Assembly (NCBI GenBank): GCA_963422615.1
Contig: OY730414.1
Location: 2,340,302 to 2,404,301, forward strand
Length of the DNA: 64,000 nucleotides
Direction: 5' to 3'
From: Longimicrobiales bacterium
GTDB lineage: Bacteria; Gemmatimonadota; Gemmatimonadetes; Longimicrobiales; Gaopeijiaceae
Part shown: positions 55,399 to 64,000 of the stretch, one piece after another
Position numbering within the stretch: the stretch's first letter is position 1
Layout of the letters: the number at the start of each line of letters is the position of its first letter
Position numbers and translations under genes: made by a program
Notes under the pieces: generated by a model
The model's input: the letters and a program-made list of their open reading frames with translations, nothing else
Told to the model about the DNA's origin: nothing
The model's database searches: none

Positions 55399-55730
55399 GT
55401 CAATGCGGCCTGGGGATGGCGGCGGGGAGGCGCCGGATGAGGAGGACGGGATGCCCGGTCCGGCCAGGGACGACAGATCCGGACCTTGAAAGCGCTTTCT
55501 GACTGCTCGGGCCGTTCCCATCATCCGGTCACCCCGGACGGACAATGGGGTGGACCTGCTGCCGGGACCTCCAAGGTGGCGTCAAGCGGGAGAGGATTAG
55601 GAGTCAGAGGCCCGGGGGACCACTAGACACCGCGAGCTTGATGGCGAAGCCATCGAAACCGGCGAGGATATGCGCCGTCCTGGGTCCGGCCCTCCACCCG
55701 ATATCCGTTGGAAAACCGTGTGGACGCCAA
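55399..55730. repeat. Repeat copy A: downstream region plus degenerate 3' end of gene 59476..60591
   Basis: Shares long blocks (ggacctccaaggtgg, aggagtcagag, gacaccgcgagcttga, cgttggaaaaccgtgtggacgccaa) with 57801-58107 and 59377-59607. Confidence 0.85.
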
Positions 55731-55787
55731 TAGGTCAATCGGATCTACCTTTCTTGACATCCGAGCCCGGATAGCGATCTTTCGGTC

Positions 55788-56023
55788 GTCTCGTCCATAC
55801 CGCCGCGTCGGGCACACTGACCGCTCTGCTTCAAGCCCCGCTGGAGGATTGGCCGGACACCCACCATCTCACCTCCATATAAGGAGATCCATCATGAACC
55901 GCTTCGTCTCGTCCATACCGCCGCGTCGGGCACACTGACCGCTCTGCTTCAAGCCCCGCTGGAGGATTGGCCGGACACCCACCATCTCACCTCCATATAA
56001 GGAGATCCATCATGAACCGCTTC
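55788..56023 (+). repeat. Exact 118-bp tandem duplication of the peptide gene leader, RBS and first codons
   Basis: 55788..55905 equals 55906..56023; a diverged third copy lies at 58115..58226. Confidence 0.92.
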
Positions 56024-56236
56024 ACTAACCAAGCATCCACATCCAACCGGCGGGTCGTCCTCTCCCGCAGCGTTATGGTCGGCGCCATCGCGCTTGCGCT
56101 CGCTTTCGTCTGGGGCTCGTCTTCGAGCGCCCAGCCCAGTGTCTCCCAAGGCATCTGCGACGACTGGGGCTGCCATTCCGGCGAGGAGAAGTGCATGACC
56201 GTCGGGCCGGTCACCTGCTGGGACCACAGGCACTAG
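56012..56236 (+). CDS. Secreted Cys-rich small peptide precursor (74 aa, 4 Cys)
   Basis: TAAGGAG RBS; MNRFTNQASTSNRRVVLSRSVMVGAIALALAFVWGSSSSA|QPSVSQGICDDWGCHSGEEKCMTVGPVTCWDHRH*; TAGTG-coupled to the next gene. Confidence 0.8.
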   Translation: MNRFTNQASTSNRRVVLSRSVMVGAIALALAFVWGSSSSAQPSVSQGICDDWGCHSGEEKCMTVGPVTCWDHRH

Positions 56237-56724
56237 TGCGAAGTGCTGCGTTGCCCGGCACAACCGGGCTTGCTGTACTCGGTACGCTGATCGTCATCGG
56301 CGCCGTGGGCATGGGGCGGGCAAATCCCGCCCCATCGCCCTTGGCGTCTCTCTTGACTTCCGAGGACCCAGGGTTTCTTGATTTCACGTTGGTCTTTCGA
56401 CCGCTCGATTGTCAGCTACCGATCGAGATCATTGAGGAACTGAACGAACTGGCGAGCGCGGAAGCCGTTACGGTTCGAGGAATCATGATTGGTCCAATCC
56501 CCGAAGGAGACGACCTCGATATCCTGCTACGAGGACTCGGCGTAACGTTCCCAGTCGTGGAAGATGCCGACGGCTACTGGTCCGATGCCTTGATCCGAGA
56601 ATCGATACCCAACCCAACCCTGTTCATCTACAAGCGTGGTTTGCGTTATGTCTCGATCAGCCTTGAGGGCCTGCGAACACTCAAGCGCTATCTGCCCAGA
56701 ACGGGGAGGGCCGTCGGTGGTTAG
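56236..56724 (+). CDS. Membrane-anchored thioredoxin/redoxin-fold protein (single Cys)
   Basis: N-terminal TM/signal; LVFRPLDCQLP, VTFPVVEDADG, IPNPTLFIY resemble the TlpA/AhpC-TSA layout. Confidence 0.65.
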   Translation: MRSAALPGTTGLAVLGTLIVIGAVGMGRANPAPSPLASLLTSEDPGFLDFTLVFRPLDCQLPIEIIEELNELASAEAVTVRGIMIGPIPEGDDLDILLRGLGVTFPVVEDADGYWSDALIRESIPNPTLFIYKRGLRYVSISLEGLRTLKRYLPRTGRAVGG

Positions 56725-57733
56725 TGCGGTGGGGCGTGGAGTTCTCGTTCTGACAGCCCTGCTGCTGGCTTCCTTTAATTCTCCTCGGCTATCCGGCCAA
56801 GTTGCCCGCACATGGGTGGAGCCAACCGGCAGTCGCGTACTCGTCGCAGGACAAATGGATTCTTTCCTTCTTCAGCCAAGCTCGGTCGACATGGGTCGCA
56901 ACATCGTCGTCTTGTTTGACAGGGGTGACGAGTCTCTGAAGGCTGTTGACCGCGCCACGGGCCGGTTACAGTGGGAGCTAGGACGTTCCGGTCAAGGTCC
57001 ATGGGAGTTCGCGGGCGTGACCGATATCGCGATGGGACCGGCAGATTCGGTCTGGGTGCTTGATGCCGAAAACCGGCGTGTCTACATCGTCGGACCTGAC
57101 GGCTCTCAGGGCCGGGTAATCAATATTGCACTTGCCCTGGCAGCATCGGAAGCTCCCTACCGGATGGCCGTGCTTCCCGATGGTTTTGTGCTCGGTCTGA
57201 GCAGTACGGATAACGGTTTGGCGGCTGTGTTTTCGGCTGACGGACAGCGTCGTGCCATGGTCAGAGGACCGCCGTGGATAGAGGATCTGACTTACATGGC
57301 GGCTGATTACCGCTTGGATGGTGATCCCAAGTCAGGGAGCTTCGCTGCGGTATTTCAGTTCACTGGCAGGATTCTGGATGGCAGACCGGGAAGCGGATCG
57401 CCAGACGTACAGGAGCTGGAAGCAGTCGTGATGGCTGACGAGCCCGAAATCATCCATTTTGAGATTGACGGCATGGCAGCCTCCCGGTTGGCGCCCGGAC
57501 AAGTGAGACTGGCACGCAGTATAGCGGTGGAGGGAGACCGCATTATGATCCTGTCGGCACGGCAGTCGGACGATGAATGGGTGGCAGACGTAATCGACGT
57601 CTACGAGAACCGTGACTACCTGTACAGCATTCGCCTACCTGCGGTCGCTAGACGAATCGCTGCGTTCGGTAACACCATTACCACTCTCGAAACCGAAATG
57701 TTGCCCACGATCCGCGAACTGATATTGCCGTAG
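56717..57733 (+). CDS. Secreted 6-bladed beta-propeller protein
   Basis: Signal peptide; LGRSGQGPWEF, VWVLDAENRRV, IDVY...YLYSIRLP. Confidence 0.8.
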   Translation: MVSAVGRGVLVLTALLLASFNSPRLSGQVARTWVEPTGSRVLVAGQMDSFLLQPSSVDMGRNIVVLFDRGDESLKAVDRATGRLQWELGRSGQGPWEFAGVTDIAMGPADSVWVLDAENRRVYIVGPDGSQGRVINIALALAASEAPYRMAVLPDGFVLGLSSTDNGLAAVFSADGQRRAMVRGPPWIEDLTYMAADYRLDGDPKSGSFAAVFQFTGRILDGRPGSGSPDVQELEAVVMADEPEIIHFEIDGMAASRLAPGQVRLARSIAVEGDRIMILSARQSDDEWVADVIDVYENRDYLYSIRLPAVARRIAAFGNTITTLETEMLPTIRELILP

Positions 57734-57800
57734 AGAAGCTCTGTCTTGCCCGAGCCGTGCCGAGCCGAAGTTGTTGGAGCGGCGATGCTTGAGGTCTCTC

Positions 57801-58107
57801 GTCAATGCGGGGCTGGGGATGGCGGCGGGGAGGCGCCGGATGAGGATGCCCGGTCCGGCCAGACGGCCAGGCCAGGACGACAGATCCGGACCTTTGAAGG
57901 CGCTTTCTGGCTGGTCGGGCCGTTCCCATCATCCGGTCGGTCACGGTCACCCCGGGGGGTGGAATGGGGTCAACCCGCTGCCGGAACCTCCGCTGTGGAG
58001 GAGGTCCCAGGACCTCCAAGGTGGTTTCAAGCGGGAGAGGATTTAGGAGTCAGAGTCCCGGGGACCAACGGACACCGCGAGCTTGACTGCGAAGCCATCG
58101 AAATCGG
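57801..58107. repeat. Repeat copy B (between cassette 1 and its duplicate)
   Basis: Homologous to 55399-55660 and 59377-59540. Confidence 0.85.
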
Positions 58108-58310
58108 TCACCTTGTCCATATCGTCGCGTCGGGCACACTGACCGCTCTGCTTCGAGCTCCGCTGGAGGATTGGCCGGACACCCACCATCTTACCTCCAT
58201 AAAGGAGATCCATCATGAACCGCTTCCCTCACTGCGTTATGCCTTGGATCAGCCTTGAGGGCCTGCGAAAACACTCAAGCGCGATCTGCCCAGAACGGGG
58301 AGGGCCGTCG

Positions 58311-59327
58311 GTGGTTAGGGCGGTGGGGCGTGGAGTTCTCGTTCTGACAGCCCTGCTGCTGGCTTCCTTTCATTCTCCTCGGCTATCCGGCCAAGTTGCC
58401 CGCACATGGGTGGAGCCTACTGGCAGTCGCGTACTCGTCGCAGGACAAATGGATTCCTTCCTTCTTCAGCCAAGCTCGGTTGACATGGGTCGCAACATCG
58501 TCGTCTTGTTTGACAGGGGTGACGAGTCTCTGAAGGCTGTTGACCGTGCCACGGGCCGGTTACAGTGGGAGCTAGGACGTTCCGGTCAAGGTCCATGGGA
58601 GTTCGCGGGCGTAACCGATATCGCGATGGGACCGGCAAATTCGGTCTGGGTGCTTGATGCCGACAATCGGCGTGTCTACATCGTCGGACCGGACGGCTCT
58701 CATGGCCGGGTAATCAATATTGTACTTGCCCTGGCAGCATCGGAAGCTCCCTACCGGATGGCCGTGCTTCCCGATGGATTTGTGCTCGGTCTGAGCAGCA
58801 CGGATAACGGCTTGGCGGCTGTGTTTTCGGCTGACTGACAGCGTCGTGCCACGGTCAGAGGACCGCCGTGGATAGGGAATCTGAGTTACATGGCGGCTGA
58901 TTACCGCTTGGATGGTGATGCCAAGTCAGGGAGCTTCGCTGCGGTATTTCAGTTCACTGGCAGGATTCTGGATGGCAGACCGGGAAGCGGCTCACCGGAC
59001 GTACAGGAGCTGGAAGCAGTCGCGATGGCTGACGAGCCCGAAGTCATCCATTTTGAGATCGACGGCATGGCAGCCTCCCGATTGGCGCCCGGACAAGTGA
59101 GACTGGCACGCAGTATAGCGGTAGAGGGAGACCGCATTATGATCCTGTCGGCACGGCAGTCGGACGATGAATGGGTGGCAGACGTAATTGACGTCTACGA
59201 GAACCGTGACTACCTGTACAGCATTCGCCTACCTGCGGTCGCTAGACGAATCGCTGCGTTCGGTAACACCATTACCACTCTCGAAACCGAAATGCTGCCC
59301 ACGATCCGCGAGCTGATATTGCCGTAA
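58311..59327 (+). pseudogene. Duplicate of beta-propeller gene 56717..57733 with a premature stop
   Basis: Same 1017-nt length and near-identical sequence; GGA changed to TGA at 58836-58838. Confidence 0.88.
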
Positions 59328-59475
59328 GAGAAGCTCTGTCTTGCCCGAGCCCGAGTTGTTGGAACGGCGATGCTTGATCCGGTCACCCCGGACGGACGAT
59401 GGGGTGGACCCGCTGCCGGAACCTCGGCTGTTGGGGGTCCCAGGACCTCCAAGGTGGTTTCAAGCGGGAGAGGAT

Positions 59476-60591
59476 TTAGGAGTCAGAGTCCCGGGGACCA
59501 ACGGACACCGCGAGCTTGACTGCGAAGCCATTGAAATCGGCCAGATACCCCCCGTCTTGGGATCGGCCCCAAACGTCATACCCGTTGGAAAACCGTGTGG
59601 ACGCCAAAAGGTCGCCTTCCGGCGTGACCACCGTCCAAAGACCTTCCGGACGGCCGCGGCGACTGGAATACAAGTGGGCTACGTTCAAAATATTCCCGTC
59701 TGGCATCTCGTCCACGAAAATGGATCGGTTCCATCGGAATTGGAAGGTCACGCGGGGCTCTTCCGGGGCCAGGGCCCGAATCAGTTCGGAAGACGAAATA
59801 ATGTCCTCGTTTTCAACCACCAGGACCGGTTTGTCGCCGTCCATCCCGAGGTACCGGGTAACTCGAAACGGGGCTACGTCCGAAACGAGCAAATCTCCCA
59901 TTGCGGTCAATGCGACCGGACCCCCGGACAACCGCCGGGTCGCCAGCCAGTCTTTGTGCTCAAACACAGGATGCCAGCTGGCGACGTGGTTTCCGCCCCG
60001 ATCGTACCGATGGACGGAGTACTGACTGAAGGGTTGCGACGGATACTTGCCCCCGCTCACGACGAATCCACCATCCGAGAGCCCGGTAAACCCATACTGC
60101 CAGATTAGCGGCAGATTCACATGATGCCCGAACTTCTTATCGACCGTTGCCACATCCACGCCTTCACCTGAACCGCCGACAATCAAAGCGCCGAAACCGG
60201 GAGCCATGGACAAGTGCATGATACTTTCGATCCTGTTTGAAATATCGGCGCTCCACGATATGGTTTTCGGTCGACTCCCGTCGGACCGTAGTTCCCACAA
60301 CTCAACGTTCCTGCCGTCGGCCACCCAGATGCTTCCATCGGGCCATTCGGCCATCCCGCCAACCGAACCGAAGCGCGGGTCAATATTTGTCCTCCAGATT
60401 TCACGGATGCGAACCCCCAGCGGACCTTCCTCCTCAAGTGGGGTCTCCGGCTGAGCTTCTCGGACCAGAACCGTATCTCGATCGCATCCACCGACCAACA
60501 ATGCCGATCCTACAGTGATAGCAATCGTTTGAAGATACAGCAGCTTCACAAGTCTCATTCTGGAGGCAAGCCGACCTATTCCTTGAAACAT
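59476..60591 (-). CDS. Beta-propeller-like lipoprotein
   Basis: Lipobox-like VGGC; repeated blades (DGSIWVADG, DGGFVVSG, GDLLVSD, DGNILNV); GGAG before ATG at 60591. Confidence 0.72.
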   Translation of the reverse strand: MFQGIGRLASRMRLVKLLYLQTIAITVGSALLVGGCDRDTVLVREAQPETPLEEEGPLGVRIREIWRTNIDPRFGSVGGMAEWPDGSIWVADGRNVELWELRSDGSRPKTISWSADISNRIESIMHLSMAPGFGALIVGGSGEGVDVATVDKKFGHHVNLPLIWQYGFTGLSDGGFVVSGGKYPSQPFSQYSVHRYDRGGNHVASWHPVFEHKDWLATRRLSGGPVALTAMGDLLVSDVAPFRVTRYLGMDGDKPVLVVENEDIISSSELIRALAPEEPRVTFQFRWNRSIFVDEMPDGNILNVAHLYSSRRGRPEGLWTVVTPEGDLLASTRFSNGYDVWGRSQDGGYLADFNGFAVKLAVSVGPRDSDS

Positions 60592-60619
60592 TTTCCGACT
60601 CCCTTTGCCAGAGCAAGAT

Positions 60620-61240
60620 CTATTGAGTTGCCGGTAACACCATGCCGGATTCGACCCACTCTCTGATTTCAACAAGGCCGACCCTCCGAGTCAGTACTCG
60701 TTCGTCTAGAATCAACCGCTGTTTTCCCCTGATCTCAACCGTCCGTTCCACGATAAGAATCTGCGGAGTCGCAGCAGGACCGGGCAGGTCGTGGAAGATG
60801 TATCTCATTACACCGATGTTGAACCAACCCCTTCCCGCCATGATTTCGTCGAAATCACCGAAGGTGGCCAAATGCTCAATGCCTTTGCTCGCGATGACAT
60901 CTCTGGCGACCCCGACTGCAGCAAATCCCAAGCCCCGCGATCGTGCACCATCGCGAATGGCCAACTTGGCTTGACGAACAAGCTTACGAAGCTCAGGACG
61001 ATTGGACCAGTGACATTGTGACGAACCCACGAGAATGAATACCAATTCTTCACCTGAATCCGTTCTGGCATCGGGTAGGTACGGGTCAGAGGAAGAAAGT
61101 ATGGGAATACTCCAACGAATGTCGACGTCTATGTCAGCTCTAGGAACAAATCCGAACAGGCCTAGGGCAAACCCCAAACCCAGAACAAGCCAAACCCGGC
61201 CATTCCTTCCATAACCTCGGAGTCTCCGAATTCCAAACAT
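60620..61240 (-). CDS. Membrane-anchored thioredoxin-fold protein with an SxxC/CxxS site
   Basis: TM helix; ELVFILVGSSQCHWS; cis-Pro-like ATPQILIV. Confidence 0.65.
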   Translation of the reverse strand: MFGIRRLRGYGRNGRVWLVLGLGFALGLFGFVPRADIDVDIRWSIPILSSSDPYLPDARTDSGEELVFILVGSSQCHWSNRPELRKLVRQAKLAIRDGARSRGLGFAAVGVARDVIASKGIEHLATFGDFDEIMAGRGWFNIGVMRYIFHDLPGPAATPQILIVERTVEIRGKQRLILDERVLTRRVGLVEIREWVESGMVLPATQ

Positions 61241-62416
61241 TCAGGCTCCTCCCTTTGGAGCAATGGTTCGCAGTTCCAACTTTGGATACGGCAACATCCA
61301 CATGGCCACTTGTCGGCTTGCATCCGCAGCAACAATTATAGGCAGCGTTTCACTTATCAAAGCTCCCAGCCCTGTCGCTACATCAATCAGGTAGCTTCTA
61401 ACTATGATATCAGAGCTACCCTTTTGAATCTCTGATGGTTCTCCACGAAGGTACTGCACCAAAACATGCCGAGAAGAAACAGCCTGCACAGAAGACAATA
61501 CGTCTCGTACTCCACTTGACGAAAACCGAACAGATGGCTGACCGTCGGAAGACGAGCTTTCCGTAATTTTAAGTTGAGCGTATCCCTCAATACCAGCGGC
61601 CCAGGCGAGTGCACCTCCGTCGGCTTCGTAGGCTCGGAGCACGGGAAGCAGTTCAAATGCGAATACAATGTGGAGGGGGTCGCCTAGACAAGCTATGCGA
61701 CCATCGGACAGTTGGCCTTGAACGAGCCAGTTATCCGAATCGTATCCGTGTCCGAAGCTGTGATCCGTCTGGCCAGGCACAACAGCAACTTCGTGAATAA
61801 TCGTGTTATCGGAACGCAACCAGCCCGCGACGAAAACCCGTTCCCGGTTGGAACATACTCCCTCGGGAACAAGTAGAAGTTGAACGGTATATTCGTGTTC
61901 GTAACTGGTATTTCCGGTATCGGTGGGAGAAAAAATCTTGAGCTCGTTTCCCCGGTCGGACACGGCTACGCGACCCTCTCTCATGAGTTCCAATCCACTA
62001 GGATCATGGAACTCGTTCGGCCCCGGTCCCGAACGCCCGAACGCACCAAGAAACTCTCCTTGAAAGTCGAATATCCGCACCTGACGATTCCGTCTGTCAA
62101 GCACATATACATTTCCGTCTTTATCCAACTTGACATCAGAAATCAACCCAAAAACTTGCGGGTCTTCGCCACCGGAACTGCCAAGCCGGCCAATCTGCAC
62201 CACCGGTTGTGCCTCAAGCAAGGCACCCCGGACCTGTACCCAATCGGACAAAGCGCTCGGAGTCAGTCCCTCCGGAATCGAATCTTTCCGGACGCTGAAG
62301 CCACTCCGGGATGGTGTGTTTTCGTGCGTTGGATGGACGATCTCATTCCGCTGTTGCTCGCAGGATCCGAGAACTCCGCAAGCGATTACCGTGGCAACGA
62401 TCCGCTGGGCACCCAC
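61241..62416 (-). CDS. 6-bladed beta-propeller lipoprotein (NHL/TolB-like)
   Basis: Lipobox LGSC; FGLISDVKLDKDGNVYVLD, FGRSGPGPNEFHDP; GGAGG upstream. Confidence 0.82.
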   Translation of the reverse strand: MGAQRIVATVIACGVLGSCEQQRNEIVHPTHENTPSRSGFSVRKDSIPEGLTPSALSDWVQVRGALLEAQPVVQIGRLGSSGGEDPQVFGLISDVKLDKDGNVYVLDRRNRQVRIFDFQGEFLGAFGRSGPGPNEFHDPSGLELMREGRVAVSDRGNELKIFSPTDTGNTSYEHEYTVQLLLVPEGVCSNRERVFVAGWLRSDNTIIHEVAVVPGQTDHSFGHGYDSDNWLVQGQLSDGRIACLGDPLHIVFAFELLPVLRAYEADGGALAWAAGIEGYAQLKITESSSSDGQPSVRFSSSGVRDVLSSVQAVSSRHVLVQYLRGEPSEIQKGSSDIIVRSYLIDVATGLGALISETLPIIVAADASRQVAMWMLPYPKLELRTIAPKGGA

Positions 62417-62544
62417 TTCCTAACCCTCCATGAACGGGTTTCGCCTCCCGGCCTCTCCGGGAACGGCGCCGACAGCACACACCCTGCCGTGCCAAGTATT
62501 GAGGTCACGTCTCATGACAGGGCTTGGCTAACAACAGCATGTGT

Positions 62545-62794
62545 CTATTTGTGACCGCAGGCGCTAGTTGTGCAACCATCTTGGCCTGCCCTGCAGGCGG
62601 TCAGTTCTCCGGGATTGTCCTCGCAGCGTTCCCAGAAAATCAGGAAGCTATCGCACTCGTTTGATTCGCAGTCATGGGCTACCGTCGGGGCAGGAGCGAC
62701 CAAAGACGGATGCGGCCGATCCGACCAGCCCGCCTATCGCCACCGGGACGAGGAACCCCAAGAGGATCCCTCGCACGCGTCGTTTGATTGTCAT
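62545..62794 (-). CDS. Secreted Cys-rich peptide precursor (6 Cys) with a 1-nt frameshift; absent from the ORF track
   Basis: AAGGAG RBS; MTIKRRVRGILLGFLVPVAIGGLVGSAASV, then a shift near 62701-62704 into VAPAPTVA|HDCESNECDSFLIFWERCEDNPGELTACRAGQDGCTTSACGHK*; span is 250 nt (3n+1). Confidence 0.72.
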
Positions 62795-63038
62795 CGGCTA
62801 TCTCCTTAAGAGAAAGTATTGGAAAATGGGGAAGTTCAAGCGCCGCACTTTAATGCGGCTGATGTAGAGACGCTCCCTCTGTGCTCCGGCGATGGGTCAG
62901 AATCGGACAGAACGTCCAAGACAGCGCTTACCAGGGCCGAATCAACTTTGGCATCGGAGGGATGCGCTCAAGAGATTACGAGGAGGCAGGGGACGTGGCA
63001 GACTCGTTCCGGCGGGACATGGTGTCAGGATTAAACCG

Positions 63039-63845
63039 TCATGACGCGGAGGTAGAGGCCGGACTTGTGATTTTCCCGAGGATGACGGACGCCACGTAGT
63101 CCGGCCCACCCCGCCGAACGATCACGGAAGGGGGCTGACCCAGTTCACGCCGAACCGAACGCCGATAGTTGGCGTAGTCGGAAAAGCCGAGTGCCAGGGC
63201 GACGGCGCCCGACGGTCGGCCGCTCCACTTGGCCAGCCTTTCCACGTGGAAGATCCGTGCGAGTGAGATGAGCCTCTTGGGCGGCGGCACTTCGCTGGCC
63301 ACACACCGCCTTCTCAAGGTCCGAACGCTGATGCCGAGACTTCGGGCTAGCTGATCAACCGAACACGGGGTGACGGTTTCGCGGAAAACGAACTCCAGAA
63401 GCGTGTTTGTGGAGACAGGAGTAGCGCGTTTCAGGCACTCCACCAGAGCGCGAACTTCCCTGTTGCCCGTGCCGCGGAGCGCGGCGGATCCGACCGCACT
63501 CAGACGGTCGTTGGCACCGGGATCCAGGCGCTCCACGAAGACGACATCCGTTTCCGCAAGTTGCCAAAGTTGGGCCGTGTTCAAGTCCGCATAGCAGATG
63601 ACAGAGCACTGGGGACACTCACGGCGAAACGAAAGGAAGGCCCCCAGAGAGGTGCCGCCGGAAGGGAAAAAGGGATCCACGAAGGTCGGCGAACAGGGGA
63701 ACCGCCCGACCAGCGTCCGGAGGTCCCGCCAAGCCGACGCAAAGCGAACGGGGCCAAGAAGCTCGTGAGCGCCACCTACACGTACCCCTGCCCGGATCCG
63801 GTCCCGAATTCTCGGACTGCCTTCGAGCGCGAGCACAGCAATCAT
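63039..63845 (-). CDS. AraC-family HTH transcriptional regulator
   Basis: SVDQLARSLGISVRTLRRR...VALALGFSDYANYRR..RRELG. Confidence 0.85.
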   Translation of the reverse strand: MIAVLALEGSPRIRDRIRAGVRVGGAHELLGPVRFASAWRDLRTLVGRFPCSPTFVDPFFPSGGTSLGAFLSFRRECPQCSVICYADLNTAQLWQLAETDVVFVERLDPGANDRLSAVGSAALRGTGNREVRALVECLKRATPVSTNTLLEFVFRETVTPCSVDQLARSLGISVRTLRRRCVASEVPPPKRLISLARIFHVERLAKWSGRPSGAVALALGFSDYANYRRSVRRELGQPPSVIVRRGGPDYVASVILGKITSPASTSAS

Positions 63846-63854
63846 CGAACGGCT

Positions 63855-64000
63855 TCAGTCGGTGTCCACCATCAGTTCCATCACTTCGTCCATTTTTCCG
63901 AGCTTGCGGCACGCTCGGTGAATCAGGGAGCGGACGGCCGTGTCCGTCACCCCCATCGTACGTGCGATCTCCCGCGTCGTCCGCTGCTCCATGTACATAC
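63855..64000 (-). CDS. Sigma-70 family (probably ECF) sigma factor, C-terminal region 4, partial at the window edge
   Basis: Manual translation ...MYMEQRTTREIARTMGVTDTAVRSLIHRACRKLGKMDEVMELMVDTD*. Confidence 0.7.
   Translation of the reverse strand, partial: MYMEQRTTREIARTMGVTDTAVRSLIHRACRKLGKMDEVMELMVDTD

What the first reader, a model, noticed from the sequence alone, without database searches (positions are those of the whole stretch)
62545..62794. Hidden 6-Cys precursor broken by one extra base
Seen: AAGGAG-N7-ATG opens a signal-peptide-like sequence that stops early in its own frame. Removing one base at GTC-TTT-G-GTC (~62701-62704) gives an 82-aa precursor ending TVA|HDCESNECDSFLIFWERCEDNPGELTACRAGQDGCTTSACGHK (C-x4-C-x9-C-x9-C-x6-C-x4-C). 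It occupies the peptide slot ahead of the propeller gene and would be missed by gene callers. Inference: a three-disulfide acidic peptide, either inactivated in this strain or hit by a sequencing indel.
Basis: partly seen in the sequence, partly recalled or inferred. Interest (0 to 1): 0.82.

Follow-up and report, generated by a model that had tools for sequence, protein, structure and literature searches.

The report
Broken six-cysteine mini-protein gene
One real extra base has broken this bacterium's gene for a small six-cysteine protein that relatives carry intact with an export signal, next to a propeller-shaped lipoprotein that likely binds it and a one-cysteine thioredoxin that likely sorts its disulfide bonds; this copy is most likely a recently dead gene of an undescribed family.

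Summary
A ribosome site, a signal-like leader (62794-62672) and a six-cysteine core in the next frame are one base out of register. Intact 82-84 aa homologues exist, and DNA alignment puts the extra base in the three-T run at 62702-62704. It is not a sequencing error: contigs from two studies other than the likely source span the site with no difference. A 94% identical relative appears to lack one base in that 117-base bin (inferred). So this is most likely a young pseudogene. The family is large (193 representatives), has no Pfam, NCBIfam or PDB match, and sits beside an NHL propeller lipoprotein and a thioredoxin-fold protein with one cysteine only (53 of 53; CxxS in 49), which suggests disulfide shuffling, not oxidation. 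Three of this genome's four upstream peptide genes are broken while 7 of 8 core partner genes are open. Binding was not tested. I found no paper on the cassette; earlier unchecked notes of this scan report the same trio. Ordinary lesion, interesting family.

The parts
62802..62807 (-). Ribosome-binding site AAGGAG, 7 nt before the ATG
   Evidence: sequence; relatives have AGGAG at similar spacing
62672..62794 (-). Frame actually read from the ATG: 40 codons, signal-peptide-like for the first 30, then off frame
   Evidence: matches positions 9-28 of a relatives-only profile, weakly
62702..62704 (-). Three-T run holding the extra base (two T positions in homologues)
   Evidence: DNA alignment; no gap in runs X3, X4, X5, X6
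62545..62703 (-). Out-of-frame rest of the gene: end of the signal peptide, predicted cleavage after T-V-A, 43-residue six-cysteine core (62676-62548), stop
   Evidence: model pLDDT 84.7, four strands; cleavage site inferred
61241..62416 (-). NHL six-bladed propeller, predicted lipoprotein (L-G-S-C), open frame
   Evidence: Pfam NHL and DUF5128 over cut-off; NHL structures; lipobox read from the sequence
60620..61240 (-). Thioredoxin-fold protein with an N-terminal hydrophobic anchor, one cysteine (C-H-W-S) and T-P motif, open frame
   Evidence: model pLDDT 91.9, TlpA/ResA/DsbE-type matches E 7e-4, motif census
59476..60591 (-). Second propeller-like protein (start codon chosen by me), open frame
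   Evidence: (weak NHL, under cut-off); follows the thioredoxin in many related loci
63039..63845 (-). AraC-type helix-turn-helix regulator upstream
   Evidence: Pfam HTH_18 E 1.6e-12; homologues near 5 of 60 related loci
63855..64000 (-). 3' end of a sigma-70-family (ECF-sized) sigma factor gene that begins beyond the window
   Evidence: Sigma70_r2 over cut-off at G000:C1:2404450-2404650 in the same frame

Best explanation
This is a gene for a small six-cysteine protein that carries a real one-base insertion and is therefore likely a recently dead pseudogene; the intact family members are likely exported, folded into disulfide-locked mini-proteins and held by the neighbouring propeller lipoprotein. 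Shown: the insertion, its presence in other studies, intact homologues, the conserved gene trio, the single-cysteine thioredoxin. Inferred working of an intact cassette: Sec export and cleavage after A-x-A; oxidation by the cell's general DsbA-like/VKOR pair; the anchored CxxS thioredoxin cannot form its own disulfide, so it would shuffle wrong bonds or hold the peptide through a mixed disulfide; the propeller would bind the folded peptide, with the variable aromatic loop between cysteines 2 and 3 as the recognition surface. I think an envelope ligand-and-receptor pair is the likeliest role (about 0.5 for that part). In this strain the ribosome would make only a 40-residue stub, and the loss is best read as relaxed selection in a small genome whose paralogous cassettes are decaying.
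For: Insertion real: X5 contig 62584-62852 (depth 12.8, study P2) and X6 contig 62416-62809 (depth 12.3, study P3, 2013) have 0 other letters and 0 gaps; X3 and X4 (study P1, possible source) agree. Young: all six cysteines, the ribosome site and the F-L-I-F-W loop are kept, 61-71% identity to intact homologues; run X7 (97 other letters in 1719) lacks exactly one base in bin 62606-62722 by depth arithmetic. Family: 193 representatives at E<=1e-3; six invariant cysteines in 57 of 57 aligned cores (selected by a six-cysteine pattern); 47 of 57 acidic, 30 of 57 with two or more W/F in loop 2-3. Trio: 52 of 60 thioredoxin-anchored loci hold an intact member (hand-corrected). Peptide distances track propeller distances (rho 0.42, 0 of 2000 permutations, 33 loci). 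One cysteine in 53 of 53 thioredoxins, no CxxC; CxxS sites cannot oxidise but suit shuffling (PMC2195995, passages) or long-lived client bonds (PMC9127828, passages). Open VKOR and DsbA-like genes side by side at G000:C1:1102501-1103480. Decay nearby: two other peptide remnants, a propeller with a TGA, a duplicate propeller with a TGA in the window.
Against: No direct evidence of binding, of disulfide pairing or of expression. The distance correlation also follows from plain linkage, and peptide-thioredoxin gives the same value (0.43). The X7 row for the site was hidden; the one missing base could lie anywhere in the 117-base bin (only 51 of those positions would rejoin the frames). Contigs drop rare variants, so a minor intact allele is not excluded. 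Partners of this cassette are still open, which plain decay explains only if the lesion is young. Some cassettes carry a TonB-dependent-receptor-like gene between peptide and propeller (L111), which would also fit a transported cargo or metal carrier. The thioredoxin fold matches are weak (TM about 0.4).
Confidence: 0.72

Rival explanations
1. Selective loss: the strain is dropping its peptides but keeping the propellers and thioredoxins because these sense, take up or neutralise peptides made by neighbours (orphan receptor or immunity).
For: In G000, 3 of 4 upstream peptide genes are broken in three different ways (insertion, deletion, stop plus decay) against 1 of 4 propellers and 0 of 4 thioredoxins. 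Peptides are about 9% of the target, so 3 or more of 4 lesions there has P about 0.003 (after the fact). Cassette C keeps open partners beside a heavily decayed peptide.
Against: Four events, counted after seeing them. Cassette C still has a fused family member that could use the partners, and one free paralogue is intact. The close relative X7 lost the thioredoxin gene instead (joint 60557-61207). Relatives have broken partners too (L074, L123, L131, L090), and anchoring the survey on thioredoxin hits undercounts these.
Confidence: 0.14
2. The gene is alive through recoding or phase variation: a +1 frameshift or polymerase slip at the T run gives some full-length precursor.
For: The core shows no second lesion, and the same allele is held unchanged by runs of three studies from 2013 to 2025.
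Against: The run is only three T, far shorter than known slippage tracts (recalled); the closest homologues are in frame at this place; no contig branch at the site in X5 although it branches elsewhere; broken copies in relatives break at other places.
Confidence: 0.05
3. The core is made on its own from the TTG at 62703 as a 52-residue cytoplasmic peptide.
For: The ORF finder lists it.
Against: No clear ribosome site before it (sequence); the product has no hydrophobic signal and would not meet partners that are predicted to face outward.
Confidence: 0.03
4. Sequencing or assembly error in a short homopolymer.
For: The genome is one contig, probably from long reads (inferred), and the base lies in a T run.
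Against: Two other studies show the same three T in contigs with over 100 bases on each side; library types are not on record.
Confidence: 0.02
5. For the intact family: the peptide is a metal-binding cargo or an antibacterial peptide and not a signal-like ligand.
For: TonB-plug gene inside some cassettes; acidic, often His-containing ends; dedicated thiol-disulfide proteins accompany some bacteriocins (recalled).
Against: Most cores are acidic, unlike typical cationic antimicrobial peptides (comparison recalled); no bacteriocin or defensin family matched; cysteines appear used by the fold, not tested.
Confidence: 0.25

Closest known systems
NHLRC2 (animals, some prokaryotes) and plant SOQ1 (PMC6107167, passages read)
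   Same: Thioredoxin-like domain working next to a six-bladed NHL propeller; a binding cleft between them is proposed.
   Different: There the domains are fused and the motif is CCINC; here two genes, a single cysteine (CxxS), a lipoprotein propeller and a dedicated small cysteine-rich neighbour.
One-cysteine thioredoxin-fold proteins Eug1p, ERp44, TMX5 (PMC2195995, PMC9127828, passages read)
   Same: CxxS-type site that cannot form an internal disulfide; suited to shuffling or to holding clients.
   Different: Eukaryotic ER proteins; the protein here has a TlpA/ResA-like bacterial fold and is encoded beside its likely client. Likeness of mechanism only.
Bacteroidota NVEALA small protein plus DUF5128 propeller neighbourhoods (recalled; named in earlier scan notes)
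   Same: Small exported cysteine protein in front of a DUF5128-type propeller; the window propeller hits DUF5128.
   Different: No NVEALA match in 18 of 18 family members.
Bacteriocin clusters with their own thiol-disulfide oxidoreductase (pediocin PedC, sublancin Bdb; recalled)
   Same: Small disulfide peptide with a dedicated redox neighbour.
   Different: Sec-type leader, mostly acidic core, propeller partner, one-cysteine redox protein; no bacteriocin family hit above cut-off.

Membership tests
Frameshift pseudogene | Intact homologues collinear with both fragments | tested here: met
Frameshift pseudogene | Lesion present in independent data | tested here: met
   X5 and X6, two other studies, 0 gaps
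Frameshift pseudogene | No full-length product made | not testable with these tools
   no ribosome or proteome data
Programmed frameshift or slippage site | Long homopolymer or slippery run conserved in relatives | tested here: not met
   three T only; relatives in frame
NHLRC2/SOQ1 | Thioredoxin and propeller in one chain | tested here: not met
   separate genes in the window and in the related loci
NHLRC2/SOQ1 | CC(I/V)NC active-site motif | tested here: not met
   one cysteine in 53 of 53
NHL six-bladed propeller (PF01436, PF17170) | Profile match over the curated cut-off | tested here: met
   window 61241-62416
TlpA/ResA/DsbE thiol-disulfide oxidoreductases | Thioredoxin fold with proline loop | tested here: met
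   invariant proline, T-P in 48 of 53; cis geometry not checked
TlpA/ResA/DsbE thiol-disulfide oxidoreductases | CxxC dithiol | tested here: not met
   0 of 53
NVEALA small proteins | Pfam profile match | tested here: not met
   0 of 18
Known disulfide-rich peptide folds (defensin, knottin, EGF-like) | Sequence or fold match to solved structures | tested here: inconclusive
   no match, but a 43-residue model is too small for a blank to show a new fold
Known disulfide-rich peptide folds (defensin, knottin, EGF-like) | Disulfide connectivity | not testable with these tools
   model coordinates were not returned

The most novel reading that the evidence does not exclude
The cassettes are an undescribed peptide ligand-and-receptor (or toxin-and-immunity) system between bacteria, built on a new three-disulfide mini-protein scaffold matured by a one-cysteine thioredoxin, and this small genome is caught giving up its own peptides while keeping the receptors to read or resist those of its neighbours.
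Probability: 0.13. Interest if true: 0.75.

Novelty: new variant of a known kind. Interest (0 to 1): 0.38.

Why it matters
The lesion itself is an ordinary young pseudogene. Its value is as an entry to a large family of exported six-cysteine mini-proteins that has no curated model and, in my searches, no paper. The partner thioredoxin always has one cysteine, which gives a sharp test (it should trap the peptide as a mixed disulfide). Strains that lost the peptide (this one) or the thioredoxin (X7) are natural mutants for asking which parts are needed.

Tried and rejected
Complex prediction of propeller with peptide: not run, the queue was full both times; binding is untested. Raw reads X10 laid 0 reads from about 1 in 100 of the run: no test. 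No RNA holder listed; X6 is RNA only by a guess, so nothing is said on expression. Search of 40 relatives with the core alone found only four chance-level hits, E 0.04-0.09; the alignment search found 31 of 401 genomes, of which the weakest (L033, L034, L037-L042) are not family members on inspection. L012 is a chance hit; L010 is a fragment. Fold searches of the peptide model: nothing. Atlas search with P0001: best 0.81, lead only. A terminator-like hairpin ends just before the T run, but 5 such sites were found against 5.1 expected. The weak match to the PAM lyase domain (3fvz, E 5.7e-7) covers only NHL blades; amidation was dropped because the peptides do not end in glycine; catalytic residues not checked. 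DsbB not found in G000. Automatic intact/broken calls (51/2/7) were wrong in 5 loci and corrected by hand: L078 and L106 to broken, L107, L125, L127 to intact. Three cores were left out of alignment A4 (57 of 60) and near-duplicate rows out of A5 and A6. P0030 (476 aa, repeat-like) was judged a chance hit and not used. Paper searches found no description; one search was uninformative; PMC12419801 passages were irrelevant; PMC10469786 main text has no mention of propeller, cysteine or peptide, and its annotation supplements were not read.

Full report
Observation. On the minus strand AAGGAG (62807-62802) lies 7 nt before an ATG at 62794. That frame reads a basic start and a hydrophobic stretch and stops at 62672 after 40 codons; another frame (62703-62545) holds the end of a signal peptide and a 43-residue core with six cysteines spaced 4-9-9-6-4. 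Loss of one base anywhere from 62672 to 62736 joins them into 82 codons. The family pattern appears in 0 of 100 resampled windows, and a profile made only from other genomes matches the leader (weakly) and the core at consecutive positions.

Homologues. The core finds three intact 83-84 aa proteins at 61-71% identity. A wider profile finds 193 representatives at E<=1e-3 among 1.84 billion; nearly all of the 146 printed are 60-130 aa with a signal-like start and six to nine cysteines. In a DNA alignment of the window gene with six intact genes, four align through the site and show a one-base gap in the T run; the other two have a longer gap there. The extra base is thus most likely a T of 62702-62704. 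Named records of the closest locus call the organism Longimicrobiales, and that genome is in the same family as G000. The habitat was not established.

Is the base real? Yes. X5 (study P2) and X6 (study P3, 2013) each give a contig spanning the site by more than 100 bases on both sides with no other letter and no gap; X3 and X4 (study P1, possibly the source) agree. X10 gave no reads and is no test. X7 holds a relative at about 94% identity; its gap rows near the site were not printed, but the depth table is consistent only with 3, 25, 1 and 2 missing letters in four successive bins, summing to the 31 required, with the single one in bin 62606-62722. That fits an intact allele but does not prove it. 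The same X7 contig skips 60558-61206, most of the thioredoxin gene.

The cassette. Downstream lie an NHL/DUF5128 propeller with a lipobox, a 206-aa anchored protein and a second propeller-like gene; upstream an AraC-type regulator and a sigma factor. The 206-aa protein has no Pfam hit, but its model (pLDDT 91.9) matches TlpA/ResA/DsbE proteins and Atlas neighbours include thioredoxin-like clusters. It is found in 81 of 401 genomes of the order. All 53 aligned homologues have exactly one cysteine in the domain, CxxS in 49, no CxxC. Around 60 of these anchors (the strongest hits, kin and near-duplicates included), 52 hold an intact family member, 4 a damaged one and 4 none, one of those on a too-short contig (corrected by hand). 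Among 60 distinct cores the third spacing is 9 in 44 and the last is 4 in 60, while loop 2-3 ranges from 4 to 19 residues; the first spacing was fixed by my pattern. The core model has four strands and no PDB match.

This genome. G000 (2.57 Mb, 98% complete) has four such cassettes and six family members: one intact free peptide, two intact fusions to a 150-residue domain without Pfam match, and three broken free peptides: this one, a deletion remnant near 1718090 and a decayed remnant near 2472450. All four thioredoxins and three of four propellers are open. An open VKOR and DsbA-like pair exists elsewhere.

Mechanism. Shown: gene anatomy, lesion, linkage, single cysteine. Inferred: export, oxidation by the general system, shuffling or holding by the CxxS protein (by analogy with Eug1p and ERp44/TMX5; PMC2195995 and PMC9127828, passages read), and binding by the propeller (by analogy with the NHLRC2 cleft; PMC6107167, passages read). 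Peptide and propeller distances correlate (rho 0.42, 33 loci), but linkage alone predicts that. Binding was not tested. In this strain the product would be a 40-residue stub. Relaxed selection is the simplest cause. The excess of lesions in peptides over partners (P about 0.003, after the fact) keeps open a more interesting reading, selective loss of the ligand, but X7 lost the thioredoxin instead and relatives have broken partners too.

Known systems. It works like a split NHLRC2/SOQ1 module with its own small client but fails both membership features. It is not NVEALA, and no bacteriocin, defensin or knottin family matched. Searches of about 8.4 million open papers found no description; subscription journals and supplements were not covered. 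Earlier AI notes of this scan describe the same trio many times, one with the same six-cysteine, CxxS form; these are unchecked and are not independent support.

Verdict. Real feature, real insertion, most likely a young pseudogene in an undescribed but already repeatedly noticed cassette family. Interest 0.38.

Noticed in passing
window 56012-57733 (+): A second cassette type: a four-cysteine peptide with a signal-like start (56012-56236), a 177-aa gene without Pfam match (possibly thioredoxin-like, untested) and a propeller-like gene; the peptide has no paralogue in the genome.
   Followed up: partly
window 58215-59327 (+): 96% identical duplicate of the 56636-57733 propeller-like gene with an in-frame TGA at 58836-58838.
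   Followed up: partly
window 55400-55740, 57800-58110, 59377-59613: Diverged repeats of the 3' end of the second propeller gene and its flank, plus an exact 118-nt tandem repeat at 55786-56021; signs of repeated duplication and deletion.
   Followed up: partly
G000:C1:427111-427824 and 2474456-2475181 (L006, L007): The same six-cysteine domain fused to an unnamed 150-residue domain, after the thioredoxin gene; also in L082, L083, L087, L097, L099.
   Followed up: partly
L111 791-4281: A subfamily places a TonB-plug receptor-like gene and an unnamed gene between peptide and propeller.
   Followed up: partly
L041, L042: Exported six-cysteine peptides with a different spacing (C-x3-C and terminal C-x-C) that recalls defensin-type motifs (recalled), in another family of the order.
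   Followed up: no
window 59476-62416: The cassette genes are 52-57% G+C against 64% for the genome, a hint of outside origin or drift.
   Followed up: no
window 62526-62583: In run X5 this stretch has no contig and the piece before it has depth 2; X7 lacks about 25 bases here. The spacer after the peptide may vary between strains.
   Followed up: no
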